A stretch of 59,081 bases of DNA, the filler included, from Sphaerodactylus townsendi (Eukaryota), in NCBI RefSeq assembly GCF_021028975.2. It is 4 parts of 3 records of this genome, joined end to end, with 100 filler letters (N's around TTAATTAATTAA, not from the genome) between each part and the next. Parts side by side here need not be neighbours in the genome. Positions count along the whole stretch, not along the records: positions 22,471 to 49,797 come from NC_059426.1; 3 more parts are not named here. One strand, 5' to 3'. Under the pieces are notes generated by a model, which worked only from the letters and a program-made list of their open reading frames with translations, was not told the DNA's origin and did no database searches. A program made the translations under genes and the position numbers. Shown here one piece after another: positions 23,157-57,941 of the stretch. The number at the start of each line of letters is the position of its first letter. The stretch's first letter is position 1.

Positions 23157-24331
23157 CTGAAAAAGAAAGTTTGCTCTTGAGCTGGTCTGAATGGAGGGGG
23201 GCTCTTGTGGCTTCTGCCCCCACAAACGCAGGCTCAAGGCTGGGCAAACAGGAAAGAAAGGCCGGGGGGGCACACCCTGATTTTTTTTGGGGGGGGGGTC
23301 TGGTGGTGGTAGTTTTAATTGTGCTTTTTTTGAAAGAAATGTTTTTTCTTACTGAAAATTTGGCCTCTCTTGGAACACACTGAAAAGCCCCTCTTTTTTA
23401 TTTTGTAGAGGAGGAAACTGCTTTGTAAGACGAGGTTTTGCTTACTGAACAAGCTGAGTGTGAAGACTTGGTTAGGCCCACCTCATTGCTGAAGCCGAAG
23501 GCAACTGGGCTGAGTGGGTTCTGAAGGGTACAATGTCAACTGGGAATGTACTCTGAGCAGCCTCTGCTGGAAGGACCTGAACTCGTGCCACGGGGGATGC
23601 AGAGCCTTGCTCAATCCCCATTAGCCTCACGACAGCCTTCTCTGGTGCCATGAGTCTGGTCTCAAGGCTGCTCAAGCATTTAACGTTTCCTTTGATTTGA
23701 AAGATCAGCCAACCGAAGAGTATTATCGTATTTGGCAGCCTTGGATAAATCGTGTATCTTCAATGTCTAAAATCTCTTATACTTTCTCTTCCTCCAAAGA
23801 TGGATGTTTTTTTCTTTTCTTATCGCATAGGGATCAATCCGTGCTTATCCTATTATTACGTTGTTGCTGCTTTATTGGGGGACATCTCTGCTTACTATTA
23901 TTTTTACTGCTGTTTTTAAAGGTTTTAGAAATGATATTTATAATTGTATCGAGATTTTATGTTGTACACCGCCCAGAGCCCCTTGGGGATGGGGCAGTAT
24001 AAAAATCTAACTAATAAATAAATGAAATAAATAAATTGTAGAGGGAAAGTCGGGGGGGGGATAGAGGAGGGGGAGGGGTGGGTGGGTAGGTTGTAAGGGA
24101 GACTCGATTGATACAGAATGAGTAGCAAAGCTTATGTAACAGATATTATGATTTTAATTTGTAATTTTTTTTCTGGACAGACAAACTTGCTCTCATTTGT
24201 ATACTACTATATTGTTGTACTAACAGACTCCCATTTTTGGAAAAGCAATAAAAACATTATTTTTAAAAAAGCATTTAACGTTCCCGCGCCCTCATTCCCA
24301 GCAACATGTGAGGCAGGCTCCAAACACTCAC

Positions 24332-24467
24332 CTGTCTGAATATTTGTGTCGAAGACTGTTCCATCTTCTAGCTTCCCCGTGTACCAGCAGTGAACGACAT
24401 CACCCTTCTTGGGAAAGTTGACTTTATCGCCCTTTTTCAGAACAGACTTTGTATACTTGGGGGGCCC
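24332..24467 (-). CDS. FKBP3: FKBP3 exon 4
   Basis: attcag| ... |gtgagt, 136 nt; GPPKYTKSVLKKGDKVNFPKKGDVVHCWYTGKLEDGTVFDTNIQT (PPIase domain). Confidence 0.96.
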
Positions 24468-27400
24468 CTGAATTCGAAAGAGAGAAGAAGCACAACAGTC
24501 ACCCCCCTCCTCTCACAGTCCTCAGCTATGCTGGCGTCACAGGAGCAAATGTCAAAATCTCTCTCGTGCCTCTGCAGCCTGCAATGCCCTCCGTCCCCCC
24601 GCAGTTCTGACACCAGGAGTCAGCTCAGGGGCGGGTGGGCGCAGTGGGATGTAGGAAATGCCCCAAATTTGCCTCCCGCACAACTGAGTAAGCCAGCAAC
24701 CCCAGCACTCTCTGCTCCATCACTGGCAATGTGGAGTCCGAGTCAGAACAGACCTAGCAGATGTTATCCGCAAAGGCTGAGCAAGCTTATCATAGCAGCC
24801 TGCCTTAGAGAGCCAGCGGGGTATGGTGCTTAAGAGCAGGTGCACTCTAATCTGGAGGAACCGGGTTTGATTCCCCGCTTTTGCCACTTGAGCTGTGGAG
24901 GCTTATCTGGTGAACCAGATTGGCTTGTGCACTCCAAACACATGCCAGATGGGTGACCTTAAGCATGTCACAGTTCTTCGGAGCTCTCTCAGCCCCACCC
25001 ATTTCACAGGGTGTTTGTTGGGGGGGGGAGGGAAAGGAGATTATAAGCCCCTTTGAGTCTCCTTACAGGAGGGAAAGGCGGGATATAAATCCAAAACTCT
25101 TCTTCTTCTTCCTGCAGGCCTCTGACCAACCAGAAATGCCATCCCAGCAGAAAAGTGCTGTTTCTTTGTGGCGACAGAGTAAACTTTAAAACAAGCTCTC
25201 GTCTGTTTCTTGGGGGACCGGTCATGAGTCTTGCTCCAGCCACCTCCTCGTCTTCCTCTCATAGGCTGCAGCTCCTCAGTATGCCAACCAGCTGCCTGGG
25301 CTGTGAGCCAGGGGGCCCAGGAGGAAACTCACGTTTGGACTGAACGTAAAGATACCCAATGAGCCACGCTAACAGAGATTGTCGGCCGCAACTGAAGACG
25401 CTTCCAAAATGACTCCCTGAAGCAACCAGGAAGCGCGGAGCGTTTGAAATTCGTCAGACAAATATTTTACAGTGAGACAGAATTACAACAGAAAACACCA
25501 GTTAATCAGCCTAGTAACCAGCAGCTACTTGTCATTTAATAGCCCCCGAGTGAACCATTGTGTTGATCAGAACACGAGCATTTCTAGACTAGTTGCCTAT
25601 TTTCCTGGAGTTACACCCATTTTTCCCCCATTTAAAAAGTAATTTGAGTCACTTCTTTTTATCTACTTTTTCCCACAATATCTTAAACATCTGGAATTAC
25701 ACAACTTAAAGGAAAGAAACACAATTATGCAAACAAAGCTGCCTATGGTGTTGTGGATTTTCCAGGTTGTATGGCCATACAACCCAGAAAACCCACAACA
25801 CCCTAGTGATTCCGGCCATGAAAGCCTTCGACAGTACAAAGCTGACTATATTATGTAGATTTCCAAAACTGTATAAAAGGTTCCCGAAATGCAGCCAGCA
25901 CCAGTTCAGACCATCTTCCATCCATTAAACACACACATCCATTAAACAATTTCTCAGAAGCTTTTTAATCCGCTCCTTGTTTGACTGACTTTTGCTAATT
26001 TGCCAGGTTTTAGCTACGATACTTTTTGCAACAGTTAACCTTACAGCAATCAAAGAAGAAGAAGAAGAGTTTGGTATATCCCCCCTTTCTCTCCTGCAGG
26101 AGACTCAAAGGGGCTGATAATCTCCTTGCCCTCCCCCCCACATGCAACAAACACCCTGTGAGGTGGGTGGGGCTGAGAGAGCTCCGAGAAGCTGTGACTA
26201 GCCCAAAGTCACCCAGCTGGCGTGTATGGGAGTGCACAGGATAATCTGAATTCCCCAGATAAGCCTCCACAGCTCAAGCGGCAGAGTGGGGAATCAAGCT
26301 CGGTTCCTCCAGATTAGAATGCACCTGCTCTTAACCACTACACCACCGCTGCAAGGAGGAGGAGGAGGAGTTTGGATTTATATTCCCCCCCTTTCTCTCC
26401 TGCAGGAGACTCAAAGGGGCTGACAATCTCCTTGCCCTTCCCCCCTCACAACAAACACCCTGTGAGGTGGGTGGGGCTGAGAGAGCTTCGAAGAACTGTG
26501 ACTAGCCCAAGGTCACCCAGCTGGCGTGTGTGGGAGTGCGCAGGCTAATCTGAATTCCCCAGAGAAGCCTCCACAGCTCAGGCGGCAGAGCGGGGAATCA
26601 AACCCGGTTCCTCCAGATTAGATACACGAGCTCTTAACCTCCTACGCCACTGCTGGAGGAGTTCATTTTCATTTAACGGTAAGCATTCTCAAGAACCTAT
26701 TGTCAAAGGCTTCCACGGCTGGAATTCACTGACGTGGAGGTTTTTTTGCCCGTGTGGCCGTAGTCTGGTAGTTTTTGCTTGTAACATTCTGCCTGCATCT
26801 TGCCAGCCATAGATGCAGGTAAAATGTTAGGAGCAAAAACTTCCAGTCCATGGCTGCACAGCCTGGACTACCCACAACTGCCAGCTTCTCGAGAACCTTT
26901 CCAGAGAGGCAGCACAAGACATTTTATAAATGAACAATAAAGCTAGACTAAGTTCAGACGTTCAAAGCTTTTTCCACAGAGAGCCAGCGTGGTGTAGTGG
27001 CAGGTGGATTCTAATCTGGAGAACTGGGTTTGATTCCCCACTCCTCCACCTGAGTGGCAGAGGCTTATCTGGTGAACCAGACGTGTTTCCGCACTCCTAC
27101 ATTCCTGCTGGGTGGGCTAGTTGTAGTTCTCTCTGAACTCTCTCAACCCCACTGACCTCAGAAGGTGTCTATTGTGGGGAGAGGAAGGGAAAGGAGCTTG
27201 TAAGCCACCTTGAGTCTCCTTACAGAAGAGTACGGCGGGATATAAATCCAAACTTTTCTTCTTCTTCTCCTAATCCAGAGTCCCCACTTCTCCACATGAG
27301 TGGCAAACTCTACTCTGGTGAACTGGAATCCCCCCCCCCCTTCTCCTACACACAAAACCTGCTGGGCGACCTTGGACTAGCCACAGTTCTCTCCCAACTC

Positions 27401-34663: not shown

Positions 34664-34765
34664 CTTTGTTTCAAAGAGCTGGTTGTAGGCGGTGATCAGC
34701 TGATCCTTACTGGCCGTCTTGGCCACATTTTTTATCTGCCCGAGTAGCTTGTGCTCTGCAAGGAA
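34664..34765 (-). CDS. FKBP3: FKBP3 exon 2
   Basis: ttgttcag| ... |gtcagt, 102 nt; [34 protein letters not shown] (N-terminal helix bundle). Confidence 0.95.
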
Positions 34766-35712: not shown

Positions 35713-35744
<32 letters not shown>

Positions 35745-35754
35745 GGGGGGGGGG

Positions 35755-35865
35755 CCGCAAGTAATGATCAATGATCTCTCCCGTGGACTGTGTCCTGCCA
35801 TGGACATCAAGTGTCTGGTTATTGATGAGGCCCACAGAGCGCTGGGAAATCATGCCTATTGTCAG
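35755..35865 (+). CDS. FANCM: FANCM exon 2, 3' part (5' part lost in gap/poly-G)
   Basis: PQVMINDLSRGLCPAMDIKCLVIDEAHRALGNHAYCQ|gtacta; DEAH helicase motif II in FANCM context. Confidence 0.93.
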
Positions 35866-36221
35866 GTACTAGAAGCTGTGCAGAATTTATGCTCTGTCTC
35901 TGTGTTGTTGAAGAGATCTTTTTACTCTTGGGTTCTTGATTCCTTTATGTTTTTTTCCAGGCCAAAATCAATGTGTGTTTAAATCCCCTATAACATCAGT
36001 GGATCCTGCCCCCCCCCCCTTTCCTTTCTGGTTTTAAGGGGATTTGATAATAGGTGCCATCTATTATGTTGATTTCAGTATGCTGCGTTTTAATGGGGCC
36101 GGGTTTATTTTATTTTATATAGAGCCAATTTAATTAATATTTAATGGATTTTAGTCTGTGGTTTATGTGCTCTATTTTTGTTTTGTTGTTCACCGCCCTG
36201 AGCCCTTTGGGGGAGGGTGGT

Positions 36222-36353
36222 GTATGTATGTATGTATGTATGTATGTATGTATGTATGTATGTATGTATGTATGTATGTATGTATGTATTATTTATATAT
36301 ATTTATGCTGATCCTATGAGTAATATATATATATTACTCATAGGATCAGCATA

Positions 36354-36428
<75 letters not shown>
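36222..36428. repeat. Microsatellites (TATG)n and (AAAG)n
   Basis: Directly visible. Confidence 0.95.
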
Positions 36429-36583
36429 CAAACTGACCCGGAAGCATTTTGGGCCTATGTTGAGGTTTGTTGGTTTCAGCCTGGCCCATTACTTCAGTGT
36501 ATGATTGTTTTGAAGTGTGTTCCCACCCCCCACCCTCCTGGACACATGGAACACATGGGGACCACTGAAAGGCCTTGCAAGTG

Positions 36584-36787
36584 GGGTGTTGTGGGTTTCC
36601 GGGCTGTCTGGCCGTGTTCCAGTTGCATTTTCTGCTGACGTTCCACCTGCATCTGTGGCTGGCAGATCCTCTGAAGATGCCAGCCACAGATGCAGGTGAA
36701 ACATCAGGACAAATGCTACTGGAACATGGCCATACAGCCCGGGAGCCCCACAACACCCCAGTGATTCTGACCACGAAAGCCTTCGAC
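36584..36787. mobile_element. PLE fold-back insertion (FANCM intron 2)
   Basis: Inverted arms; imperfect 15-bp TSD AAGGCCT(TG/CT)CAAGTG. Confidence 0.7.
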
Positions 36788-38194
36788 AAGGCCTCTCAAG
36801 TGTTTATATGAAAGGTCTCTGTGTGTGGTGGCTGTTATAAGCAACGAAGCATGACAGATTCTGTGCTGTCTGGGATGTAGGAAGTGGGCCAGTTTCCACT
36901 ACTCCCAACAATGCAGTAGATTTGCTTGTTGAAACCCGTCTGTGGTTCATGTGACTTCAGCCCAATTATCCCTTTTCTAGAATAAGAAAAAACAGCAAGA
37001 GAAACATGCTAGGTATCTGTCACGTACCACCAGATGGCTTGTGAGTCTTATGAACGGAAGGTGGAAAACGGATACTGATCTTAAAAGTAGCATGTGAAGT
37101 TGACCGTGTGTTTGCAAGACTGTAAGACTGCATTGGGGAAACTTCCACGAATGGCTTACCTGTTCCGGATCAACCTACTTGCCTGTTGCCTCCTTCAAGG
37201 ACCTTGGAGAGCGCCCCAGTTCAGCAGTGAGGTGCACAGTTATTCAATGTATCCTGTGCTCTGTTCTGTCCTCACAGCATCTCTGTAATGTCGGGTAGGC
37301 TGACAGTTGGTGGCTGGTCATAGAATCATAGAGCTGGGAGAGACCCCAAAGGCCATCAAGTCCAACCCCCTGCCATGCAGGAACACACGATCAAAGCGCT
37401 GGCCATCCAGCCTCTCTTTAAAAACCTCCCAAGAAGGAGACTCCGCCACCATCCGAGGGAGTGCATTCCATTGTCAAACAGCCCTGATGGTCAGGAAATA
37501 TTTATTGATGTTTAGGTGGAATTTCTTTTCCTTCCCCTTGAACCCATCACTCCTGGTCCCAGTCTCTACAGCAGCAGAAAACAAGCTTTCTCCCTCACCA
37601 ACAGGACATCCCTACACATGGCTATCATGTCACCCCTTAACCTTCTCTTCACCAAACTAAACATCCCCAGCTCCCTCAGTCTCTCCTCGTAGGGAATCGA
37701 TTCCAGACCTTTGACCATTTTAGTTGCCCTCCTCTGGACATGTTCCAGCTCATCAATATCCTTCTTAAACTGCAGTGCCCAAAACAGAACACAGTACTCT
37801 AAGTGAGGTCTAACCAACGCAGCGTAGATTGGTACAATCCCTCGATCCATAAACAATACTCCTATTGACACACAATCAAAGCACTCCCAACATATGTTCA
37901 TCCAGCCACTGTTTAAAAACCTCCACACTCCACCACTCTCCGAGGCAGTGAATTTGACTGTCAAACAGCCCTGACTGTTGGTGATCCCTTAAGAAACTCT
38001 ATGGCCCCGACTCTCCCCAGGTTAAGTCCAGCATTTAAATCTCTTTTCCCGAAAAAAGTGCCAGCTTCAAACCTTGGCATCTTTGGCTGAAAGGACTTTG
38101 GGTAGCAGGGCTGGAGGAAAGCGTTCTATGTGGGAGCTGATAATACTGGGCTACGTGACTGAATGTAGAAGGCAGCTTCAACTTTTCCCAGGAG

Positions 38195-38461
38195 TATTGT
38201 CGAAGGCTTTCACGGCCGGAATCACTGGGGTGCTGTGTGGTTTCCGGGCTGTATGGCCGTGTTCTAGCAGCATTCTCTCCTGACGTTTCGCCTGCATCTG
38301 TGGCTGGCATCTTCAGAGGATCAGATAGATCTGAGAGATCTATTTGTTGCTGATAGATCTGAGAGATCTGAGAGATCTATCAGATCCTCTGAAGATGCCA
38401 GCCACAGATGCAGGCGAAACGTCAGGAGAGAATGCTGCTAGAACACGGCCATACAGCCCGG
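38195..38461. mobile_element. PLE fold-back insertion with two intact hammerhead cores (FANCM intron 2)
   Basis: TSD TTTTCCCA(G/A)GAG (38183-38194, 38462-38473); TCCTCTGAAGATGCCAGCCACAGATGCAGGCGAAACGTCAGGA present on both strands. Confidence 0.78.
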
Positions 38462-38752
38462 TTTTCCCAAGAGCTTTTAATTTAAAAGAAGAGGAGAAGG
38501 AGTTTGGATTTATACCCTGCCTTTCTGTCCTGTAAGGAGACTCAAGGTGGCTTACAAGCTCCTTTCCCTTCCTCTCCCTACAACAGACTCCTTGTGGGGC
38601 TGAATCCAGAGTGAACTGTGAGGGGCCCACGGTCACCAACAGGCTTCACGTGGAGGAGCAGGGAAACAAATCCCGTTCTCTTGATTAGAATCTCTTGTGT
38701 GGAGGAGTGGGGAATCAAACTTGGTTCTCCAGATTACAGTCTACCTGCTCTT

Positions 38753-38850
38753 AGAAGAAGAAGAAGAAGAAGAAGAAGAAGAAGAAGAAGAAGAAGAAGA
38801 AGAAGAAGAAGAAGAAGAAGAAGAAGAGGAGTAGGAGGAGTAGGAGGAGT
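38753..38850. repeat. (GAA)n expansion of a SINE tail
   Basis: Directly visible, contiguous with the SINE 3' end. Confidence 0.92.
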
Positions 38851-39389
38851 TTGGATTTATATCCCCCCTTTCTCTCCTGCAGGAGACTCAAAGGGGCTGA
38901 CAATCTCCTTGCCCTTCCCCCCTCACAACAAACACCCTGTGAGGTAGGTGGGGCTGAGAGAGGTTCGAGAAGCTGTGACTAGCCCAAGGTCACCCAGCTG
39001 GCGTGTGTGGGAGTGCACAGGCTGATCTGAATTCCCCACATAAGCCTCCACAGCTCAGGCGGCAGATCTGGGAATCAAACCCGGTTCCTCCAGATTAGAT
39101 ACACGAGCTCTTAACCTCCTACGCCACTGCTGCTCTTAACCACCTGGCGCTATTTACTTAATCACGGGCGCCTATCATTAATGCATAGTTTGGCATCCCG
39201 TTTGGGATTCTTATCCATTTTTCTCCTAGCTTTTGTTGGGGTTCTGAACGATCTGTTAAATGGAGACCCGTGCTGTTTGTATATCGGCGTAGTAAATGCC
39301 TTGCTGATTTATGCTGCATGACAGAACTTTGGAGGGAAAGAAATACAACTACCTTTGATGATGCAAGACTGATTTCCGCCCCCCTTTAG

Positions 39390-39467
39390 GTTGTGACGGA
39401 ATTATGCAAATATACCCGACAGTTCCGCATTCTGGCTTTAAGTGCCACTCCGGGAAGTGACAAGCAG
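39390..39467 (+). CDS. FANCM: FANCM exon 3
   Basis: cctttag| ... |gtaagc, 78 nt; VVTELCKYTRQFRILALSATPGSDKQ (motif III SAT). Confidence 0.95.
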
Positions 39468-40540
39468 GTAAGCACATCGCCCCCTTAGACGGAGAACCCT
39501 TTGCCGAAGGGGCTTCTCTTTGTCTGACTCCTGTAGCTGCTGTTTCCCCATATTGTTTGTTTCCTTTGGTTTTCATCTATGAGCTCATCATAGCCCACAG
39601 GGGATATTTCAGGAGGTTCTGCTTCAGCCTCCCCTTCATTCGTGCTGCCCGGAGACAGCCGTTTTCTGGGCGCCCCCCCCTATGCCTGGGGGCGGGGCTC
39701 AGGGGGCCCTCCCGCCACCCAAGCTCTGCCCCCAGGCCTCACCCCCATGCTTATAGAAGAAGAAGAAGAGTTTGGATTTATATCCCCCCTTTCTCTCCTG
39801 CAGGAGACTCAAAGGGGCTGACAATCTCCTTGCCCTTCCCCCCTTCACAACAAACACCCTGTGAGGTAGGTGGGGCTGAGAGAGCTCCCAGAAGCTGTGA
39901 CTAGCCCAAGGTCACCCAGCTGGTGTGTGTGGGAGTGCACAGGCTAATCTGAGTTCCCCAGAGAAGCCTCCACAGCTCAGGCGGCAGAGTTGGGAATCAA
40001 ACCCGGTTCCTCCAGATTAGATACACGAGCTCTTAACCTCCTACGCCACTGCTGCTCCTTATAAAACCAAAGGAGTTGAGGACGAAGCCTTGCAGTTGCT
40101 TCTGCTCTCTCTAGAGAGGAGGGCAGAAGGGACTGCCAGCTGGGAGGGGGCGAGGCTTGAGGGGGCAGTCTCCTTGGGCTTCCTTGGCCCCGCCCACGTT
40201 GATGACACGGGCAGGGCCGAGGGTGCCTGAAAACATTGCCGTCTTCTTGGTCACGTCGGTGGTCAAATTTGCACCCCCCACTGTGACCAGATTAGTGGTG
40301 CCTTGGGACAGAGAGTACCCCCCCCCCCCGGTACCTGGGCAGATACGCCACTGATCCTGCACCAGGCAACTATGAGTGGAATGGACTTGTGGAATCCAGC
40401 AGAAAATGCAGTGATGCGCTCGAAATGCTATACAAATGCTGAGCGTTATTGTGGTTTCAAAAGCGTCTTGATTTCAGTGTACTCGGATGACCTTTTAAAA
40501 AATGCAAGTGACCGATAACATCCTCGTTGCCTCTTCAAAG

Positions 40541-40699
40541 GCCGTGCAGCAAGTGATTTCCAACCTGTTGATTTCACACATTGAACACTGGTCGGAGGAT
40601 TCCCCGGAGATCCAGCCCTATTCCCACCAACGGCTGGTCGAAAAGTGTGTCGTCCCACTGGGGGAGGAACTGTCTGAAATGCGGGCTGCTTATTTGAGG
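40541..40699 (+). CDS. FANCM: FANCM exon 4
   Basis: cttcaaag| ... |gtaagt, 159 nt; AVQQVISNLLISHIEHWSEDSPEIQPYSHQRLVEKCVVPLGEELSEMRAAYLR. Confidence 0.93.
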
Positions 40700-41240
40700 G
40701 TAAGTCGACCAGACGGCTGCCAGGGAGGGGAAACGGTGGCGGGTGGGAGCAGTTGAACAGAAAAATAAAAGAGGGATGGGCCTCTGTGGTTATCTTCTTG
40801 ATGGAGAATCTGTTTAAATAAATCATAATAAAATGGCTCTATACACGTTGAATCATTAAAACCCCATTAAAAGCCGCGTATTAGTTTTGTACTTTGCAAA
40901 AAACGTATACTTGGAGTGAAGCAAAAGGAGAAAAATCCCTCACAAAAATGAGTTCCTTGAAGAACTAGCAGATTGATTGACACATGAAACTGGGCTGGAC
41001 TGCAGCCCACACGGTATATTAAAGGGGTGCTCACTCCTCGTGTTATTGCTGGCTGAGAATCCACATCCACGGAAGGTTGTGCTTGAAGAAAATTGACTTT
41101 TTTGTTGTGTGCTGAGCGTTCTGCTTTGGAGATCTACGGGTGGGAAGAGGGTCAAATGTCATCGCAGCTGCGATAGTTGCACAAAGAGTTTTGAGCCTTC
41201 TGACTCTGGGTGGAGCTCAGCTGCCGTCTAACGCCTGGAA

Positions 41241-41721
41241 TATTGTGTACAGTTCTGGACACCGCAATTCAAGAAGGACATTGACAAGCTGAAACATGTC
41301 CAGAGGAGGGCAACAAAAATGGTCAAAGGTCTTGAGTCCATGCCCTACGAGGAGAGACTTAGGGAGCTGAATATGTTTAGTTAGGTGAAGAGAAGGTTAA
41401 GAGGTGACATGATAGCCTTGTTTAGATATTTGAAGGGATGTCATGTTGGTGAGGGAGCAAGCTTGTTTTCTGCTGCTCCAGAGACTAGGACCAGGAGAAA
41501 TGGGTTCAAGGGGAAGGAAAAGAGATTCCACTTAAACATCAGAATAAACTTCCTGACCATCAGGGCTGTTTGACAGTGGAATGCATTTCCTCAAAGTGTG
41601 GTGGAGTCTCCTTCTCTGGAGGTTTTTAAAGAGAGGCTGGATGGCCATCTGTCGGGAGTACTTCAGTTGTGTGTGCCTGCATTGCAGGGGGTTGGACTTG
41701 ATAGCCCTTGGCACTCTATGA
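41241..41721 (+). mobile_element. CR1 LINE, second subfamily (also 19765-19983 +, 37320-37980 -)
   Basis: [19 protein letters not shown]; ORF 37566-37964 contains [18 protein letters not shown]. Confidence 0.82.
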
Positions 41722-42636
41722 TAACACATTGGGCTTTTAGGTAACGAGTGGCTAATAGTTGGTTATTGCAAGCCCCAGTGGGAGGCTGCTCTTTGCAGCT
41801 AGAGGTGGCCGTGGGCACCCTTTGTTGTGTGGGCCAAGCCCCTTAGCACTTCTCCTGCACCCGGCAACTCCTGCGGGATCCTTGAACATGTAAATTGCCA
41901 GGTGAGGTTATAATTCTCATTCTCTATGTTGGTTGCAGAATCTATTTTATACTGTGCTTTTCTCATTCTTTTCTCATTCCTCAATCCCTGGCCCCAAGGC
42001 GATCCGGCTGGCCTCTACAAGGGCCAGGGCTTTTACGGTCCTGGCCCCTACCTGGTGGAACAGGCTTCCGAGTGAGATCAGGGCCCTGCGGGACTTACAG
42101 AGTTTCCGCAGGGCCTGTAAAACGGACCTGTTCCGCCAGGCATTTGGCCAGCCGGGATGATTTCAACTTCGCCATAAGAACATCTGGCCTCCGTGGGTAC
42201 ACAAAGGGGGGAGGGAGGGGTTGAAGCCATCTGCAAGTTTTAGTATTTTATGTATTATTATATGTTTTAAATTGTTTTTATGACTGATGGACACCGCCCT
42301 GAGCCTTTGGGGGAGGGTGGTATGTAAATATGATAAATAAATAAAATAACTAAATTCTCATCGTGAACAGCCCCTTCAAAATAATTTCACTGCTTGCTCA
42401 TGTGCAGTCCTGCACACTAACACAGGGTCTTGCTAGGAAGAGGAAGAGACAGCAGCAGGAGACTCGTACTTGAAGGACCAAAGCCTCTCTTGTGCCTCTG
42501 CCTGGCACACCCAAGAGCCTCAGAACGGGGGCCCTGGCAAGATTGTTTACGCACTGGCTTGTGAGGGATGTGCGCATGAAGGGGTGGTGTTCTTCTCCTT
42601 GGTTTGCTCTCAGAATTTTGGAGGCATTTTTGCTTT

Positions 42637-42831
42637 AGGGTGTTGTGGGTTTTCCGGGTTGCATGGCCGTGTTCCAGTAGCATTTTCTCCTGATGTTTCG
42701 CTTGCATCTGTGGCCGGCATCTTCAGAGGATCAGCCGAAAAGCTGGGAGAAAATGCTACTGAAACACCGCTATGCAACCCGGAAAACCCACAACGCCCCA
42801 GTGATTCCAATCATGAAAGCCTTCAACAATA
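42637..42831. mobile_element. PLE fold-back insertion (degenerate)
   Basis: TSD CATTT(T/C)TGCTTT (42625-42636, 42832-42843); same arm sequence as the other copies. Confidence 0.68.
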
Positions 42832-43058
42832 CATTTCTGCTTTCTTTCCGTAAGAGTCTGCTCCTTGGGATGATGCAGGCATTTATGCCCCACCGCGCAT
42901 CATAGTGAGCTCCTGAGGTACAACCTCTCCCCACCCTTGCATTTTTCTTGTGGCTTCACTAGGGAAGAGGAACGGCCAATTGAAATCTCTTGCTGTCTTT
43001 TCCATATCTTCCCCAGAACCTGTGCCTTGCTAGAGTTACTGATGTCTAGATTGTGGCG

Positions 43059-43150
43059 AGGAAGGAAGGAAGGAAGGAAGGAAGGAAGGAAGGAAGGAAG
43101 GAAGGAAGGAAGGAAGGAAGGAAGGAAGGAAGGAAGGAAGGAAGGAAGGA
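43059..43150. repeat. (GGAA)n microsatellite
   Basis: Directly visible. Confidence 0.95.
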
Positions 43151-43314
43151 ATTGGGACCCCACACCCCAGCAGGGTAGTCCCATCAGATTTCTGGAGCAG
43201 GGATCCTCACTGGACTGGAGACCCATGTAAAACTTCACGGCCTCTTCAGAAACAGGAACACTTGGCAAATATATTTGTGGTTCTTAAAGTGTTATGATTA
43301 TGAATGGTAAATGG

Positions 43315-43726
43315 AGCAGCAGTGGCGTAGGAGGTTAAGAGCTCGTGTATCTAATCTGGAGGAACCGGGTTTGATTCCCAGCTCTGCCGCCTGAGCTGTG
43401 GAGGCTTATCTGGGGAATTCAGATTAGCCTGTACACTCCCACACATGCCAGCTGGGTGACCTTGGGCTAGTCACAGCTTTCTGGAGCTCTCTCAGCCCCA
43501 CCCACCTCACAGGGTGTTAGTTGTGAGGGGGGAAGGGCAAGGAGATTGTAAGCCCCTTTGAGTCTCCTGCAGGAGAGAAAGAGGGGATATAAATCCAAAC
43601 TCTTCTTCTTCTTCTACCTCACAGGGTGTTAGTTGTGAGGGGGGGGAAGGGCAAGGAGATTGTAAGCCCCTTTGAGTCTCCTACAGGAGAGAAAGGGGGG
43701 ATATAAATCCAAACTCTTCTTCTTCT
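43315..43726 (+). mobile_element. Full-length Squam3-like SINE with a tandemly duplicated 3' end; more than 20 copies in the window (e.g. 15637-15938, 21305-21590, 24808-25110, 26052-26655, 26978-27270, 30680-30912, 38753-39135, 39755-40058, 45875-46178, 53016-53280)
   Basis: tRNA-like head GCAGCAGTGGCGTAGGAGGTTAAGAGC...GGGTTTGATTCCC and (CTT)n tail; family name from recalled consensus. Confidence 0.82.
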
Positions 43727-44128
43727 GAAACCCAGTGTTGTAGGCTAAATACATTAGTTCATTACAGATAAAACAAAATGAGAGTCTTGTGGCTTTTTAG
43801 AGGCGATTAAGTGGCCTTCGGTCCATGCGAGCTTCAGTATCTTTGAAGGGCCAAGACTCCCTTTAGTTTCAAAGTCGCCGCATGTCGTGCCCCTGGTCTG
43901 ACGCTGCGTGACACCGGATGCTCATATTTAACTCGCTGTCCACCCACACCCCAAGATCTTATTCACACACACGGCCACTCAGTAGTGTGTCCCCCATCCA
44001 GAGAGAAAGGGGGAGAAGAGGGAGGGTCAGCCAGGGGGGTTGCCCACATCTTCCCCCACAGCAACACCCACCACCACTGCAAAAAAAAAAAAGCCACTAG
44101 TTTAAAATTAAGGTAAATTGACTTTCAC

Positions 44129-44858
44129 GCAAACTCTATGCTGGGGATCATTAGAAAAGGAATTGATAATAAAACTGCAAGGATTGTCATGCCCTTATAT
44201 AAAGCAGTGGTGCGACCGCACTTGGAGTACTGTGTTCAGTTCTGGTCGCCACATCTCAAAAAGGATATCAAAGAGATAGAAAAAGTGCAGAGAAGGGCAA
44301 TGAGGATGATTGAGGGACTGGAGCACCTTCCTTATGAGGAGAGGCTGCAGCATTTGGGACTCTTTAGTTTGGAGAGGAGACGTTTGAGGGGGTATAGGAT
44401 TGAAGTCTATAAAATTATGCATGGGGTAGAAAATGTTGACAGAGAGAATTTTTTCTCTCTTTCTCACAATACTAGAACCAGGGGGCATCCATTGAAAATG
44501 CTGGGGGGAAGAATTAGGACTAATAAAAGGAAACACTTCTTCACGCAACGTGTGACTGGTGTTTGGAACATGCTGCCACAGGAGGTGGTGATGGCCACTA
44601 ACATGGATAGCTTTAAAAAGGGCTTGGACAGATTTATGGAGGAGAAGTCGATCTCTGGCTCCCAATCTTGATCCTCCTTGATCTCAGATTGCAAATGCCT
44701 TAACAGTCCAGGTGCTCGGGAGCAGCAGCAGCAGCAGAAGGCCATTGCTTTCACATCCTGCATGTGAGCTCCCAAAGGTACCTGGTGGGCCACTACGAGT
44801 AGCAGAGTGCTGGACTAGATGGACTCTGGTCTGATCCAGCTGGCTCATTCTTATGTTC
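44129..44858 (+). mobile_element. CR1 LINE 3' fragment, same young family
   Basis: Near-identical to 31432-32230. Confidence 0.92.
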
Positions 44859-46335
44859 ACAGTCTAGAAGTAAGCCAATCTTAATTTTAAAACAACCACA
44901 ACCTTTTTTTTCCTGGCCAGGGAGGGAGTGGGGAAATGTAAACTTACACGTCAGTAAAGACTTTTCCTGTGCACCCCGCAGTGTTCTGCTGCATACCCCT
45001 GGGAGTTTGCTCACCTCAGGTTGGGAGCCAGCGTTCTAGGGCATAGTTAAATTGAGGAAATGGCAGGAGTTCACGCATCATCACCTCAAGGTTGTTTCAG
45101 GAGTGATCCTGGAACCAGGCTCTGCCCTTGGATTTTATGGGATCAGAGGGGATCTGGAAGGTGAAGCATGGCTGTGTGTGTGTTCGCTGTGGGATGCATG
45201 ATCAGGAACTGCACAGAATTTGGAGCATTAGAACCATGTAACATAGAACAGTCATTTGGAAAACTATTTTATTTTAAAGGTTTACATTTTGCCATCATTC
45301 AGAAAACTAGTTCTCTGGGTGGTTTGTACTAAACTGTTCAACCTCAAAACGCAGTGCAATTATGAACATACTAAAATAGAAATATAACCACACCGCAGGA
45401 ACACACAACATTAAACAGTTGAAAAATTAATATAAAAAGCAGTAAAAGGTGACCAAGGGTAAAATAAACAGGTAGAAACAGATAAAGCCGCTGTGACACT
45501 ATTAACGTTGTATTAGAAGTAAAGAAAGGAACACTGCCTAAAGCAAGGGTCCCAATCCTTTTTGAATTCTGAGGACACCTTTAAAATCCTGGCGCAGGGT
45601 GGTGGGCGCAGCCACAATATGGCTGCCTCCTTCTGGGGTCTCCTGTCTTTGCTTTGTCATAGAGTGCGGAAGAATGCACTTGAAAGACACCGGGAATAAG
45701 TGATTTAACCAACGTGGTTTTAGATCGAGCCCAAACCAATGTAAATGTCATAGAACCCTTTGATTAATACATTCATGACCAGCCTTACAGAACTTTGGCA
45801 GCAACTTGAAGAATTTTTGTGTGTGTTAACTGGTGGTAAATATCTCAAGGTTATCTTCTTATGGCTGAGGAATGGAAGAAGAAGAAGAAGAGTTGCATTT
45901 ATATCGCCTCTTTCTCTCCTGTAAGGAGACTCGAAGGGGCTTACAAACTCCTTTCCCTTCCCCACCCCCCACAACAAACACCCTGTGAGGTGGGTGAGGC
46001 TGAGAGAGCTCTGAAGAACTGTGACTAGCCCAAGGTCGCCCAGCTGGCATGTGTTGGAGTGTACAAGCTAATATGGTTCCCCAAATAAGCCTCTACAGCT
46101 CAAGCGGCAGAGTGGGGAATCAAACCCAGTTCCCCAGATTAGAGTGCACCTGCTCTTAACCACTACACCACGCTGGAGCAGTCTGGGCAATATATAAAGT
46201 TGTAGAACAGGTTACTCCTGCATTCTCCTGAGTGTCATATTTGAGTGTAACACTCAATCCTTTCAGCTGACCTGTCACGATTCTGTTGCTCATCTTCAGT
46301 GTGCTGATGGTCGACTCAGCTACTTCACAGTTCAT

Positions 46336-46685
46336 ATTAGGACTAATAAAAGGAAACACTTCTTCACACAATGTGTGATTGGTGTTTGGAATATGCTGCC
46401 CCAGGAGGTGGTGATGGCCACTCACCTGGATAGCTTTAAAAGGGGCTTGGACAGATTGATGGAGGAGAAGTCGATCTATGGCTACCCATCTTGATCCTCC
46501 TTGATCTGAGATTGCAAATGCCTTAGCAGACCAGGTGCTCAGGAGCAGCAGCAGCTGCAGAAGGCTATTGCTTTCACCTCCTGCCTGTGAGCTTCCAAAG
46601 GCACCTGGTGGGCCACTGCGAGTAGCAGAGTGCTGGACTAGATGGACTCTGGTCTGATCCAGCAGGCTAGTTCTTATGTTCTTAT
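46336..46685 (+). mobile_element. CR1 3' end (more copies at 30098-30312 -, 34374-34631 +, 49898-50228 -, 53644-54000 +, 58719-59081 +)
   Basis: Shared ORF2 end, 3' UTR and TTCTTATG tail. Confidence 0.88.
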
Positions 46686-46695
46686 ATGAAGCCGG

Positions 46696-46867
46696 CTACA
46701 GTCTCTCAAGAAACCATATTTCATTCAGTCGAGTAGCAGCAGCTGGGTTGGTGTATCCTGCAACGATAAAAGTGTCTCTCAAGCACAGCTCGGGGTTTCC
46801 CAGAAGTTCCGCCAGCAGATTTATTTCTCTTGCAATTGAGCCTTCGTTTGTGACTCCTCCGAAGCCC
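46696..46867 (-). CDS. soul3: SOUL/HEBP-family heme-binding protein (soul3-like), last coding exon
   Basis: ttggcag| phase 2; (R)GFGGVTNEGSIAREINLLAELLGNPELCLRDTFIVAGYTNPAAATRLNEIWFLERL-TAG; SOUL signatures FGG, AGY..P, R.NEIW. Paralogue assignment from recalled fish soul3 (FIVAGYTNPAAANRQNEIWFLER). Confidence 0.85.
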
Positions 46868-48220
46868 CTGCCAACAGACCTTGCTTTAGACTTACTGCGT
46901 CCCAAGAGTTCATGTTACAACAAATATAATTATTTCAGTCATAGTAATAATAGTGCAGTCTTGAGAACAGCTCCACCCTTCTATTGATTTCAGTGGGCTT
47001 AACATGCCACAGCTCTGCTTGGGTCTACGTTGTAACTAAGACTTCCCCATTTTATAGATGAACTGCTGGAGTCAGGGGGAGAAATTAATCTTGCCAGATC
47101 CCTCCAGCGCCAAGCTGGATCTAGCTGATGGCAAAAATTAGGTAGCTTGTCAGAAACTGTGGCAGTAGTTGGCTAACTCACTTAAGGGGCAGTAAAACAT
47201 ATACAGACTTTTTAACAGGGTACACAGAGAGCTTTCTTGCTAGGAACTTTACATCCAGGAAACGGAAATGGTTTGGGATCTCTGCAGCGACAACTGAGAT
47301 TTCACTAGACATCGGCCACATTTCAAGTCTTGTCTCTGAAGAGACGGGAACATAGAGTTTTAAAAAATCATCTTTAATTCTTCATTGTTAGGTGTTTGGA
47401 CGCCCAACAAAAACGAACATTGAAACTGAGATACTAAATGAGAGGTTATCTTTTGATTTCCCCAATAAGCATATGTCAGAGGGGAGCAGTATTTACAGTT
47501 TGGGTCCACCTCTTTTGAGCCCTTTTGGGCTCTTCTTACTTCTGATAGTGTGTGTGTGTGGGTGGGGGTGGGGAGTCACAAAATGGCTGCCCCGGCTTAT
47601 CTTGAGTCACACAGTGAAGATCGTCATGCTGAGGTGGCAGCCACTGGCCAAGTAGTGTTTTCAAAAATCTTCCAAGCATAAGCATAGGCATTTTATTGTC
47701 ATTGTGCACGCACAGCGAAATTTACAGCAGCATTCCTCAATGCACACAATTTCAGACTCATACCCCATCCTCACTTTCCCCTTCCTCCACCCATCCCTAC
47801 ACAGCCCCAAACATATCAACACAAAGCCCCGGAGTTCAGCCTAGCCACAGCTCTAGAGTAGAAGCTGTCTCTAAGCCTCTTTGTCCTAGTTTTGATAGAC
47901 CTGTATCGTCTGCCGGATGGTAACAGTTCAAAAAAGGAGTGTGCTGGACGAGACGGGTCTCTCGGAATATGTTGGGCTTTCTTTAGGCTTCGGGAATTAT
48001 AGAGTTCTTCCCAGGAGGGGGGGGGGACGGCTACGATAATCCTCTCTGTGGGAGCGGTGCCTTTGGAGCGCGCTATATCTGCCACTGTGCAACTGGAACC
48101 TCACCTGGCTGGCACCGAGTTGGAGACCCCCGAGTTAAAGGCCTGCAATGGTGCCGCTTCCGAGTAACTCGCCCGAGCGTCCAGGCTTGTTGGACACCCC
48201 TGGCCTGGGCCACTTCTTAC

Positions 48221-48404
48221 CTGGCATAAACCACGGCTGGAGGCCACTCTTCAATGATGATATCAGGGTCGTGGGGATCTGGAGGCTGATCCTGCAACCC
48301 CCCAGGGAGGTAGTAGGCTACTGTCACAAATCTTGTGATGTCCGATGTGGATTCGCCAGTATGAATTACGGTCACGATAGGAACCGTCATCCCCAAGTAT
48401 AGCC
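48221..48404 (-). CDS. soul3: soul3-like, penultimate exon
   Basis: atccacag| ... |gtaaga, 184 nt, phase 1-2; GLYLGMTVPIVTVIHT...VTVAYYLPGGLQDQPPDPHDPDIIIEEWPPAVVYA (SOUL GMTVP and Q..PP.P.D motifs). Not in the supplied ORF track in this frame. Confidence 0.87.
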
Positions 48405-48791
48405 CTGTGGATAACGTGCCGTCGTTAGTGATTCCCTGATGTTGGGGAGTAGCTCGCTGTGGTTTTAATAACCTACTTTTAAAAGAATTTTGTAGGCTTG
48501 CTAAACTGGTTTGTAATATCTTCAGGAATCAGTTAGTGCCAAGCGGGGACTGATCACCAAGTCAAAATCTAGCACTTTGGAACCCTTTTCCGGCAGCCTG
48601 GGGAACAGAATCTGCGCCTGGCTCCTCCAAGGTCTGGAAAGCAGGGCACCAAACTAAAGCGGATTTACTGGGGCTTAGGGCCACTCTCGTTATTTTAGGG
48701 CAGGATACCTCTAGAACTAATGAGTATGTATCTCTTTTACCCGCTGTAATGAATGGGCAGTAATGGATGACTTTAAAAAAAGACTTGTACC

Positions 48792-49400
48792 CAGTGGTGG
48801 GATCCAAAAATTTTAGTAACAGGTTCCCATGGTGGTGGGATTCAAACGGTGGCGTGTTAGCACCAATGCTGGGGCTGGTGAGGAACGCGACCGGGGCGTG
48901 GCGGAGGGCATTCCAGAAGCGGGGCATTAATAATTTCTCTGTTACTGTAAAACCCTCTTACTGTAAAAAAAACGGTCCCTAATTTCCGGCTGCGAAAGGT
49001 ATCTTTCTGTCTGTAATTTATGACTCATTATAGCAGGTACTGTAGTATTTCCTGACAGCAGAAACAACTTCCTTCTCCTCTAATCGACTGCCATCAAATG
49101 CGCTTAATACTTTTAATACTTAATTTTGTATCTAGAAATCAAAAGAAGGAGACTTTCCTGAAACAAGGAACTTTACCATATTTCTAACACATGTTTTTAA
49201 AACAGCCCAACAGGGAGAATTATCCCGTTTTCTACCTTCGCTAACCAGCCACATAGGAAACAACAGGACTTTATGATTTTTGGACCTAATGGAGTTTCTA
49301 ACGGAAAAGCGGACCCAATTAGTAACCCCCTCTCAGCACACATAAATCATTAGTAACCCCCTCTCGGGAACTGGTGAGAACCTGCTGGATCCCACCTCTG
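48792..49400. mobile_element. Non-autonomous hAT element at a soul3-like 5' splice site (partial relative at about 55383-55779)
   Basis: TIR CAG(T/A)GGTGGGATCC; 8-bp TSD CTTGTACC (48784-48791, 49401-49408). Confidence 0.9.
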
Positions 49401-49407
49401 CTTGTAC

Positions 49408-49549
49408 CTGAAGAATTCTGCTCACAAATGTATTTCATGATCTTCATGAATCCGAGGCACACGCTCTGTTCGTACTGGTCTTCTTGCACTTTGACGCAAG
49501 CCCACCTGCCCTTTGCGTAATGGCGTTTCTCATAGAGCACTTTGCCAAA
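49408..49549 (-). CDS. soul3: soul3-like, internal exon (upstream exons lie beyond the contig end)
   Basis: ttgcag| ... |gtacaa, 142 nt, phase 0-1; FGKVLYEKRHYAKGRWACVKVQEDQYEQSVCLGFMKIMKYICEQNSS (SOUL YE.R.Y...W and F.KL..YI...N motifs). Confidence 0.87.
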
Positions 49550-49797
49550 CTGCAATTTTTTTTTAAAAAAAACCTTAAAATTAGTGTAACTATGCTGCGT
49601 TCGGATAACAGCCTCATTCCTGGCTGAATCAGAGGATACCGCAAGGCTCGAAAGGCTGCTCTCGGTCTGTTTGCAAGAGGAATCCCACGTACTGTTTTGC
49701 AACCTTCCCTTTTGGCCTCAAAGAAGCGCAATGATAATGAAGTCAACTCTTAAAATAACTTTCTCCTTCACACTGAATACAACTTCAAATGGTTAAG

Positions 49798-49897
49798 NNN
49801 NNNNNNNNNNNNNNNNNNNNNNNNNNNNNNNNNNNNNNNNNTTAATTAATTAANNNNNNNNNNNNNNNNNNNNNNNNNNNNNNNNNNNNNNNNNNNN
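49798..49897. other. Artificial contig spacer
   Basis: Same spacer. Confidence 0.95.
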
Positions 49898-50449
49898 ATA
49901 AGGAAGGTGCTCCAGTCCCTCGATCGTCCTCGTTGCCCTTCTCTGCACTTTTTCTATCTCTTCGATATCCTTTTGGGTGACCAGAACTGGACACAGGACT
50001 CCAAGTGCGGTCGCACCACCGCTTTATATAAGGGCATGACAATCCTTGCAGTTTTATTATCAATTCCTTTCCTAATTATCCCCAGCATAGAGTTTGCCTT
50101 TTTCACAGCTGCCGTGCATTGAGTTGACATTCCCATGGAACTATCAACTAAGACGCCCAAATCCCTTTCCTGGTCTGTGACTGATAGCACTGACCCCTGT
50201 AGCGTGTATGTGAAGTTTGGATTTTTTCACAGTCAACCTGGCAACCCCACAGGGTTTTTTTCAGAGAAAGACACTCAAATTCTCTTTCCTGCCTCTAAGT
50301 AGTAATCCTGGACTTCTTTGGTGGTCTCCCACCCAAAGTACTAAGCAGGGTCAACCCTGCTTGGCAGGTGAGAGCTGAGGAGAGCAAGCTAGTCTGGGCT
50401 AGCCAGGTCAGAGGGTCAGTAACAGATGGGTCATATCCTTCCTCTAAAC

Positions 50450-51483
50450 CAGGGGTCTGCAACCTGCGGCTCTCCAGATGTTCATGAACTACAAATCCCA
50501 TCAGTCCCTGCCAGCAATTGCGGACCTTGATAAATTAGGTGAGTGGGCTCAGAAATGGCAAATGCAGTTCAATGTAGCAAAATGCAAAGTGATGCACATA
50601 GGGGCAAAAAATCCAAACTTCACACACATGCTACAGGGGTTGGTGCTATCAGTCACAGACCAGGAAAGGGATTTGGGCGTCTTAGTCGATAGTTCCATGG
50701 GAATGTCAACTCAATGCATGGCAGCTGTGAAAAAGGCAAACTCTATGCTGGGGATAATTAGGAAAGGAGTTGATAATAAAACTGCAAGGATTGTCATGCC
50801 CTTATATAAAGCAGTGGTGCGACCACACTTGGAGTCCTGTGTTCAGTTCTGGTCGCCACATCTCAAAAAGGATATCGAAGAGATAGAAAAAGTGCAGAGA
50901 AGGGCAACGAGGATGATTGAGGGACTGGAGCACCTTCCTTATGAGGAGAGGCTGCAGGGTTTGGGGCTCTTTAGTTTGGAGAGGAGACGTCTGAGGGGGG
51001 ATAGGATTGAAGTCTATAAAATTATGCATGGGGTAGAAAATGTGGACAGAGAGATATTTATCTCTCTTTCCCACAATACTAGAACCAGGGGGCATTCATT
51101 GAAAATGCTAGGGGGAAGAATTAGGACTAATCAAAGGAAACACTTCTTCACGCAAGGTGTGATTGGTGTTTGGAATATGCTGCCACAGGAGGTGGTGATG
51201 GATAGCTTTAAAAAGGACTTGGACAGATTGATGGAGGAGAAGTCGATCTATGGCTACCAATCTTGATCCTCCTTGATCTCAGATTGCAAATGCCTTAGCA
51301 GACCAGGTGTTCGGGAGCAGCAGCAGCAGCAGAAGGCCATTGGTTTCACCTCCTGCAGTTGAGCTCCCAAAGGCACCTGGTGGACCACTGCGAGTAGCAG
51401 AGAGCTGGACTAGATGGACTCTGGTCTGATCCAGCAGGCTAGTTCTTATGTTCTTATGGAGAGCTGCAGGTTGCAGACCCCTG
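50450..51483. mobile_element. hAT MITE interrupted by a CR1 3' fragment (50521-51458, +)
   Basis: TIR CAGGGGTCTGCAACCTGC; TSD CTCTAAAC (50442-50449, 51484-51491); ORF 50478-51266 encodes the CR1 ORF2 C-terminus (WQMQFNVAKCKVMHIG, ERDLGVLVD). Confidence 0.9.
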
Positions 51484-56870: not shown

Positions 56871-57836
56871 TCACTTTCTCATTTTGGTGCTACTAGGAGA
56901 GGACAACCTGAAGACTCTGAGGACAGCTTCTCGGATCGTTTTCGTCCTCACCCCGTAGATAACGGGGTTCATCATGGGTGGAACGAGCACATAGATGTTG
57001 GCCACAATGATGTGAGCTGCAGGAGAAATCCCGTGACCAAATCGGTGGGTCAGGAAAGAGAAGAATGCTGGGGTGTACGTGACCAGGATCACGCAAACGT
57101 GGGAGCCGCAGGTGCCCAGGGATTTGAGCCGGGCTTCCTTGGAGGGAAGCTGGAAGACTGTGCGGAGGATCAGAACATAGGACAGAATGATAAGCATGAA
57201 ATCCACCCCTCCTGTCAGAAAGGCAACGGTCAAGCTGTAGGCTTTGGGCACCCGGGTGTCCACACAGGTCAATTTCACCAAGGCCATGAACTCACAGTAG
57301 GTGTGGGAGATGACGTTCCCCCTGCAGTACGGGAGCCCCTTCAGAAGAAAGGGGTGGGGGCAGAGCAGCACGACCCCGCGGATCATGACTACCAGGCCTA
57401 TCTTGGCAATGACGGAGTTGGTCAAGATGCTAGAGTGTCTGAGCGGGTTGCATATCGCCACGTAGCGGTCAAAGGCCATGGCGGCAAAGAACCCGGATTC
57501 CATGGTGGAAAAGGAGTGGATCAGGAAGACCTGGGCCAGGCAGGAATTGGCGTGGATGCCTCTGTGCCGGAACCAGAAGATGCTCAAGATTTTGGGCAAG
57601 GTGGTGGTTGAGACCACTAAGTCAGCCACCGCCAGCATGGACAGGAAGAGGAACATGGGCTTGTGGAGGCTCGGCTCAGCCTTGACAACCACCAGGAGGA
57701 CGCAGTTCCCGAGAAGGGAGACGATGTAGATGGAGCAGAAGGGGATGGAGATCCAGACGTGGAAAGCTTCCAGTCCTGGGATCCCTACGAGGATGAAGCT
57801 GGAGGGGTGGAGAAAGGTCCAGTTAGCAGGCGACAT
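56871..57836 (-). CDS. Olfactory receptor, class I (family 52-like), intact single-exon ORF of 321 aa
   Basis: FILVGIPGLE, LHKPMFLFLSMLA, MAFDRYVAICNPLRH, SHTYCEFMALVKL, KSLGTCGSH, PPMMNPVIYGVRTK; N-glycosylation sequon N5-W-T; acceptor ttttttttcag about 57 nt upstream of the ATG. Confidence 0.96.
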   Translation of the reverse strand: MSPANWTFLHPSSFILVGIPGLEAFHVWISIPFCSIYIVSLLGNCVLLVVVKAEPSLHKPMFLFLSMLAVADLVVSTTTLPKILSIFWFRHRGIHANSCLAQVFLIHSFSTMESGFFAAMAFDRYVAICNPLRHSSILTNSVIAKIGLVVMIRGVVLLCPHPFLLKGLPYCRGNVISHTYCEFMALVKLTCVDTRVPKAYSLTVAFLTGGVDFMLIILSYVLILRTVFQLPSKEARLKSLGTCGSHVCVILVTYTPAFFSFLTHRFGHGISPAAHIIVANIYVLVPPMMNPVIYGVRTKTIREAVLRVFRLSSPSSTKMRK

Positions 57837-57941
57837 GATTGGCTTGGTGGCCTGGTCCTGTCAGTTCTGAATCATGGTAGTTCTCTTCGACCCTGAAAAA
57901 AAAGGCTGTAGGTAAAAGAGTTACAGATCAGCTGAGGGAGT

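What the first reader, a model, noticed from the sequence alone, without database searches (positions are those of the whole stretch)
46696..49549. A soul3-like heme-binding gene apparently nested antisense in FANCM intron 4
Seen: three minus-strand exons (49549-49408, 48404-48221, 46867-46696) with canonical splice sites and matching phases (0-1, 1-2, 2-stop) splice into an uninterrupted SOUL domain of about 165 aa. They lie on the same contig downstream of FANCM exon 4, and I found no FANCM exon 5 (recalled human ILESFARSLIQ...) between 40700 and 49797. Established: SOUL/HEBP proteins bind heme or porphyrins; mammals have HEBP1 and HEBP2, while fish have extra paralogues. The sequence resembles my recollection of fish soul3 more than HEBP1/2. 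Inference: a little-studied non-mammalian paralogue survives inside a DNA-repair gene, with convergent transcription through a gene whose product resolves R-loops and stalled forks. Human FSCB-type or other nested genes are not what is seen here.
Basis: partly seen in the sequence, partly recalled or inferred. Interest (0 to 1): 0.7.

Follow-up and report, generated by a model that had tools for sequence, protein, structure and literature searches.

The report
soul3 gene nested in FANCM intron
Three intact exons of soul3, a gene of a heme-binding protein family, lie backwards just behind exon 4 of the DNA-repair gene FANCM in this gecko and very likely inside its fourth intron, a likely ancient layout that also shows in bird and fish gene records but not in human or mouse; the gene is already annotated and nested genes are common.

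Summary
Observation confirmed. The three minus-strand exons have canonical splice sites and give 165 aa identical to residues 108-272 of a Sphaerodactylus townsendi RefSeq protein named 'HEBP1-like'. The name is wrong: the protein groups with teleost soul3 (61-65% identity), apart from HEBP1/HEBP2 (28-31%). Its first 107 residues and FANCM exon 5 are not in the window; the scaffold ends at 49797 at an artificial spacer, so the window alone cannot prove nesting. Outside records support it: the same-species FANCM model splices exon 4 to exon 5 on the same chromosome; in a pigeon three consecutive accessions run FANCM up to exon 4, soul3, FANCM from exon 5; a hake FANCM model runs from exon 4 into the exact antisense of soul3's last exon. 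FANCM is no host in human or mouse nested-gene catalogues. Best reading: an independent gene locked in FANCM intron 4 since early jawed vertebrates and lost in placental mammals. Heme binding and any cross-regulation with FANCM are untested. No paper found, but the gene is annotated, nested genes are common, and this scan reported the same layout before in shark and ray genomes.

The parts
49408..49549 (-). soul3 coding exon, residues 108-155 of the 272-aa protein (third exon, numbering inferred)
48221..48404 (-). soul3 coding exon, residues 155-216
   Evidence: (100% identity to XP_048342599)
46696..46867 (-). soul3 last coding exon, residues 216-272 and TAG; an alternative acceptor (exon start 46757) gives the shorter RefSeq isoform X3
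45268..45273 (-). only minus-strand AATAAA/ATTAAA between the soul3 stop and FANCM exon 4: predicted poly(A) signal (3' UTR about 1.4 kb, ending about 4.5 kb short of exon 4)
   Evidence: prediction only
40700..49797 (+). 5' part of FANCM intron 4 (at least 9.1 kb, no N, repeat-rich), host of soul3; runs off the scaffold end
40541..40699 (+). FANCM exon 4 (159 nt; numbering follows human, recalled)
39390..39467 (+). FANCM exon 3 (78 nt)
35755..35865 (+). 3' part of FANCM exon 2 (5' part lost in the gap and G run at 35339-35755)
24327..24470 (-). FKBP3 exon, head-to-head neighbour on the same scaffold; marks this as the normal FANCM locus (human FKBP3-FANCM adjacency is recalled)
49798..49897 (.). 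100-base spacer (N44, TTAATTAATTAA, N44) ending the scaffold; same spacer at 11720-11819 and 22371-22470

Best explanation
The three exons are the intact 3' half of the gecko soul3 gene, lying antisense behind FANCM exon 4 and very likely wholly inside FANCM intron 4, where it likely works as an independent gene that FANCM splices out with the intron. It would be transcribed from its own promoter near FANCM exon 5 towards exon 4 and end at a predicted poly(A) signal 4.5 kb short of exon 4, so the mature RNAs share no sequence. The product is predicted to be a soluble SOUL-fold protein with a hydrophobic cleft for a porphyrin or similar flat ligand, plus a conserved N-terminal helical arm that HEBP1/2 lack. 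The layout is likely as old as bony vertebrates or older and persists because moving the gene would break FANCM; the only easy exit is deletion, which placental mammals likely took. Shown: exons, reading frame, family, orthology, strand and order up to the scaffold end. Inferred: exon 5 beyond the gene, promoter, 3' end, age, ligand, reason for persistence.
For: Identity with annotated S. townsendi protein. Tree of 41 rows: window inside a 16-row clade with three named teleost soul3 proteins (94/98), that clade plus lamprey and a sister paralogue 100/100 apart from HEBP1 and HEBP2 (labels checked). Same-species FANCM model XP_048340658 matches window exons 2-4 and continues into exons 5-7; it and soul3 are on a 183,231,754-base record, yet exon 5 is not between exon 4 and soul3. 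Pigeon: OPJ90116 (FANCM, ends at the exon 4/5 junction), OPJ90117 (soul3), OPJ90118 (FANCM, starts at exon 5). Swallow: RMB98472 and RMB98474 are the same two halves with one unseen protein between. Gekko kuhli KAL8168583 (FANCM to exon 4) then KAL8168584 (soul3); swift and killdeer FANCM then soul3 at +1. Hake model KAK0153378 leaves FANCM after exon 4 and its residues 396-451 are the antisense reading of the whole last soul3 exon: 93.9 bits, next best 27.5 of 654 protein-frames, 500 shuffles at most 22.5. 14 of 120 exon-4-bearing entries end at this junction (10 gene models, 4 unnamed assembly ORFs) against 10 over the next 600 residues. 17 of 19 species with both proteins and a record length share that length. 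FANCM is absent from 13,089 human and 7,561 mouse host/nested rows, controls found. Model pLDDT 81, best match heme-bound HEBP1 7oon, TM 0.88 by target.
Against: No continuous DNA from exon 4 through soul3 to exon 5 was seen in any species; accession order is a proxy for gene order. The same-species FANCM model is itself only 265 aa and no long S. townsendi FANCM was among the best 120 of 937 hits, so that assembly is broken or the gene is short. The swallow's middle protein was not seen. In the roller the accessions are two apart in the other order (NXS54246, NXS54248). 2 of 19 species differ in record length (pelican, short scaffolds; green turtle, two assemblies). Heme binding is not general in the family, and two of three basic residues recalled as heme contacts in HEBP1 are replaced (C138, A259). 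Absence from mammals beyond human and mouse annotation was not tested: one search had only 31 candidates and also missed snakes and crocodilians.
Confidence: 0.8

Rival explanations
1. The pair is kept because it is functionally coupled: soul3 transcription collides with FANCM transcription in intron 4, or promotes termination there, and so tunes full-length FANCM in tissues where soul3 is high.
For: Long conservation is rare: only 17 overlaps shared by human and zebrafish in PMC2151771 Table 2. The layout holds in gecko, birds and hake. Host/nested co-expression can alter host isoforms (abstract of PMC11694760).
Against: Most mammalian pairs show no relation in expression, whatever the orientation. 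Human and mouse FANCM do without a nested gene. Conservation follows equally from the gene being trapped. No expression data here.
Confidence: 0.12
2. Not nested in this gecko: the FANCM piece is a truncated copy or the scaffold is mis-joined at a repeat between 40700 and 46696, and soul3 is merely a neighbour.
For: Window lacks FANCM exon 1 and exons 5 onward; repeats lie between; the same-species RefSeq model is short; continuity across that stretch was not checked with reads.
Against: Same-species model splices exon 4 to 5 on the same chromosome record as soul3; FKBP3 is the upstream neighbour; the same order and strand appear in Gekko kuhli, pigeon and hake; other geckos have full-length FANCM on the same record as soul3, Gekko japonicus on a 325-kb scaffold.
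Confidence: 0.05
3. The protein is a true HEBP1 or HEBP2 orthologue, as its database names say.
For: RefSeq names 'HEBP1-like' or 'HEBP2(-like)'; best fold match is HEBP1.
Against: Equal, low scores to both (73 bits each); 28-31% identity against 61-65% to teleost soul3; 100/100 branch separates it.
Confidence: 0.01

Closest known systems
soul3 (heme-binding protein soul3 of NCBI/UniProt, named after the zebrafish gene)
   Same: 61-65% identity over the SOUL domain, same N-terminal arm, same clade; same convergent position behind FANCM exon 4 in hake.
   Different: Tetrapod orthologues are misnamed HEBP1-like or HEBP2-like; no paper on its position was found.
HEBP1 (p22HBP) and HEBP2 (SOUL), Pfam PF04832
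   Same: Same fold (TM 0.79-0.88 by target) and Pfam family (141 bits, cut-off 27).
   Different: 28-31% identity; about 75 extra N-terminal residues with predicted helices; three cysteines (125, 138, 149) in 26 of 26 soul3 rows and 0 of 4 HEBP1/2-type rows; ligand untested.
Opposite-strand intronic nested genes (e.g. ANGPT2 in MCPH1, named as a conserved pair in PMC11694760)
   Same: Spliced protein-coding gene in a long intron of a host, on the other strand; 17% of human genes host a nested gene (section heading).
   Different: Conserved from fish to reptiles and birds, which few overlaps are, and apparently ended in mammals by loss of the inner gene.

Membership tests
SOUL heme-binding protein family (PF04832) | Pfam SOUL match above the curated cut-off | tested here: met
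   each exon; whole protein 141.4 bits
SOUL heme-binding protein family (PF04832) | SOUL/HBP fold | tested here: met
   AlphaFold model, top ten PDB matches all HEBP1/HEBP2; a predicted model
SOUL heme-binding protein family (PF04832) | binds heme or porphyrin | not testable with these tools
   not general in the family (PMC3174058 passages); recalled HEBP1 basic contacts partly replaced
soul3 orthologues | clade with named teleost soul3, apart from HEBP1, HEBP2 and the sister paralogue | tested here: met
   94/98 for the soul3 clade (just under the starred bar), 100/100 against HEBP1/2; sister paralogue 100/98 on its own branch; zebrafish itself not in the tree
soul3 orthologues | shared genomic position with teleost soul3 | tested here: met
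   hake antisense capture after FANCM exon 4; one fish only
HEBP1 or HEBP2 orthologues | groups with mammalian HEBP1 or HEBP2 | tested here: not met
intronic nested gene, opposite strand | host exons on both sides of the inner gene in one continuous sequence | tested here: inconclusive
   5' side shown in the window; 3' side only by proxy; no genome held
intronic nested gene, opposite strand | host exons flanking the gene are spliced together | tested here: met
   same-species and other gecko FANCM models join exon 4 to exon 5; gene models, not reads
intronic nested gene, opposite strand | inner gene is transcribed and spliced | tested here: inconclusive
   three RefSeq isoforms; run X5, kind not on record, has pieces that break within 3 bases of 5 exon borders where run X1 runs through; no splice joint among the rows shown

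The most novel reading that the evidence does not exclude
soul3 and FANCM have been a coupled unit since early jawed vertebrates: soul3 is a cysteine-lined heme or porphyrin sensor whose antisense transcription through intron 4 sets how much full-length FANCM a tissue makes, and mammals uncoupled the two by deleting the inner gene.
Probability: 0.1. Interest if true: 0.7.

Novelty: new member of a known kind. Interest (0 to 1): 0.35.

Why it matters
Practical: the nested gene breaks FANCM gene models at intron 4 in geckos, birds and a fish, and the soul3 orthologues of tetrapods are misnamed HEBP1/HEBP2, which corrupts orthology and expression tables; fancm deletions that span intron 4 in zebrafish, frog or chicken would also hit soul3. 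Evolutionary: a rare overlap kept across bony vertebrates and apparently ended by loss of the inner gene in mammals, a natural test of whether nested layouts persist by function or by entrapment. It is not a new kind of system.

Tried and rejected
No whole genome is held for this window. Run search: no RNA holder listed, no evidence either way. The antisense scan of 218 FANCM entries found only the hake case; no model's extra N-terminus matched soul3's first exons. No long S. townsendi FANCM among the 120 listed of 937 hits. ESM Atlas gave only family-level SOUL clusters with phylum-level taxa, no answer on mammals. Paper searches: fancm+soul3 0; fancm+nested gene+intron 0; fancm+heme-binding protein+chicken 0; soul3+heme-binding gave 7 plant/algal papers; soul3+zebrafish one passing mention in bass; FANCM+FKBP3+MIS18BP1+HEBP only mammalian gene lists (listing only). 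The 2016 SOUL evolution paper is not held and the 2011 zebrafish soul paper was seen only as a reference; either may mention synteny. Supplements of two fish papers held no coordinates; three supplements of PMC11694760 were too large to read. The olfactory receptor and NOP9 were rejected as neighbours because spacers separate them. A heme-ligating histidine was rejected as a conserved feature: H117 is Q in birds, turtles and most frogs.

Full report
Observation. The three minus-strand exons are at the stated coordinates with AG acceptors, GT donors and matching phases, and splice to 165 codons ending in TAG. Each exon alone passes the Pfam SOUL cut-off and they tile the profile in order. The peptide is an exact substring (residues 108-272) of Sphaerodactylus townsendi XP_048342598, 'heme-binding protein 1-like', so the window is from that gecko or a very close relative and the gene is already annotated, with three isoforms; the shorter isoform X3 uses an acceptor visible at 46757. 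Residues 1-107 are not in the window.

The window is a patchwork. Identical 100-base spacers with stops in all frames stand at 11720, 22371 and 49798. The piece 22471-49797 carries FKBP3 exons on the minus strand, FANCM exons 2 (part), 3 and 4 on the plus strand, and the soul3 exons. Exon numbers follow human FANCM and are recalled. There is no N from 35683 to 49797 and same-species exons 5, 6 and 7 have no match in the window, while exon 3 is found at E 2e-14. No genome is held, so nesting had to be tested on outside records.

Identity. In a 41-row tree of the domain the window sits with other lizards inside a clade of turtle, bird, frog, elephant shark and three named teleost soul3 proteins (94/98); with lamprey and an unnamed sister paralogue it is separated from HEBP1 and HEBP2 by a long 100/100 branch (HEBP1 and HEBP2 rows labelled). 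Identity is 61-65% to teleost soul3, 39-52% to the sister paralogue (soul4 by recall), 28-31% to HEBP1/2; PDB HEBP1 and HEBP2 score the same 73 bits.

Nesting. (a) The same-species FANCM model XP_048340658 matches window exons 2-4 and continues into exons 5-7, on a record of the same length as soul3's; since exon 5 is not between exon 4 and soul3, it must lie beyond, if the two assemblies agree. That model is only 265 aa, and no long one for this species was among 120 listed of 937 hits, which I read as assembly breaks but did not prove. (b) In the band-tailed pigeon, OPJ90116 ends at the exon 4/5 junction, OPJ90117 is full-length soul3, and OPJ90118 starts at exon 5; both FANCM halves are on one 387,336-base scaffold. 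(c) Swallow has the same two halves two numbers apart, the middle protein unseen; Gekko kuhli has the first half followed by soul3; swift and killdeer have FANCM then soul3; the roller has them two apart in the other order on one scaffold. (d) A hake FANCM model runs from exon 4 into 56 codons that are the antisense reading of the entire last soul3 exon: 93.9 bits against 27.5 for the next best of 654 protein-frames from 218 entries and at most 22.5 in 500 shuffles. This shows the same strand and order in a teleost, though not its exon 5. (e) 14 of 120 exon-4-bearing entries stop at this junction, 10 of them gene models, against 10 over the next 600 residues. (f) 17 of 19 species with both proteins and a record length share it; the exceptions are a fragmented pelican assembly and two different green turtle assemblies. 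Accession order is a proxy; no continuous sequence across exon 4, soul3 and exon 5 was seen.

Mammals. FANCM occurs in none of 13,089 human and 7,561 mouse host/nested rows of PMC11694760 (supplementary tables S1, S2 searched; controls MCPH1, FANCC, Hebp1 found). No mammal was among 24 hits, but that search was shallow. Loss in placentals is likely; monotremes, marsupials and remnants are untested.

Expression. RefSeq lists three isoforms. In run X5, whose kind is not on record, contig pieces break within 3 bases of five exon borders, whereas pieces of run X1 run through them: a weak hint of spliced RNA. Nothing here bears on tissue or on co-expression with FANCM.

How it likely works. soul3 would be read from a promoter near FANCM exon 5 towards exon 4; the only minus-strand poly(A) hexamer downstream is at 45268-45273, so the predicted transcript stays inside the intron and shares no mature sequence with FANCM. 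The model (pLDDT 81, 34 sequences) has the SOUL fold, closest to heme-bound HEBP1 (TM 0.88 by target), with a disordered acidic N-terminus and confident helices at 49-68 and 76-88. Three cysteines are present in 26 of 26 soul3 rows and 0 of 4 HEBP1/2-type rows; C138 replaces an arginine and A259 a lysine that I recall as heme contacts of HEBP1 (alignment). A porphyrin-like ligand is the best guess, not a result: human HEBP2 did not bind haemin in PMC3174058 (passages seen). Persistence is most simply entrapment: the gene cannot move without breaking FANCM. Functional coupling is the rival; most mammalian host/nested pairs show no expression relation (passages of PMC11694760), but overlaps conserved to fish are few, 17 between human and zebrafish (section 5 of PMC2151771).

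Novelty. Searches joining FANCM with soul3, nested gene or heme-binding protein gave no paper; two key soul papers are not in the library. The gene is annotated, nested antisense genes are common, and three earlier notes of this scan report the same layout in shark and ray genomes (unchecked AI notes, seen after my own tests). Verdict: real, an ancient but ordinary kind of arrangement, interest 0.35.

Noticed in passing
window 11720-11819, 22371-22470, 49798-49897: Three identical 100-base spacers with stop codons in all six frames join unrelated scaffolds; gene order across them means nothing.
   Followed up: partly
window 56871-57860 (-): Intact single-exon olfactory receptor, 329 aa, Pfam 7tm_4 E 2e-107; on another scaffold.
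   Followed up: partly
window 7200-11570 (+): NOP9 exons (PUF_NOP9 hits at 8691-9206 and 11281-11565); on another scaffold.
   Followed up: partly
window 11820-22370: 10.5-kb scaffold with no Pfam hit in 94 of 105 open frames of 55 aa or more that were scanned (two more); content unidentified.
   Followed up: partly
window 27917-35755: FANCM exon 1 and the start of exon 2 are absent; the shared FKBP3/FANCM promoter is probably lost in the gap and G run at 35339-35755. The same-species RefSeq model also starts inside exon 2.
   Followed up: no
window 31385-32230, 44117-44860, 46340-46690, 50448-51460: Near-identical copies of a LINE-type 3' end (CR1 label recalled); one begins about 15 bases after the soul3 stop codon and so would lie in its 3' UTR.
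   Followed up: no
window 43014-43046 (+): A false last exon used by the truncated GenBank/UniProt FANCM model A0ACB8G6K6 of this species.
   Followed up: no
proteins P0272, P0276-P0279, P0282, P0286: A sister paralogue of soul3 in fish, turtles and other vertebrates with the same N-terminal arm; a single lamprey gene is unresolved between the two. Which of the two is the original chicken ckSoul is open.
   Followed up: partly
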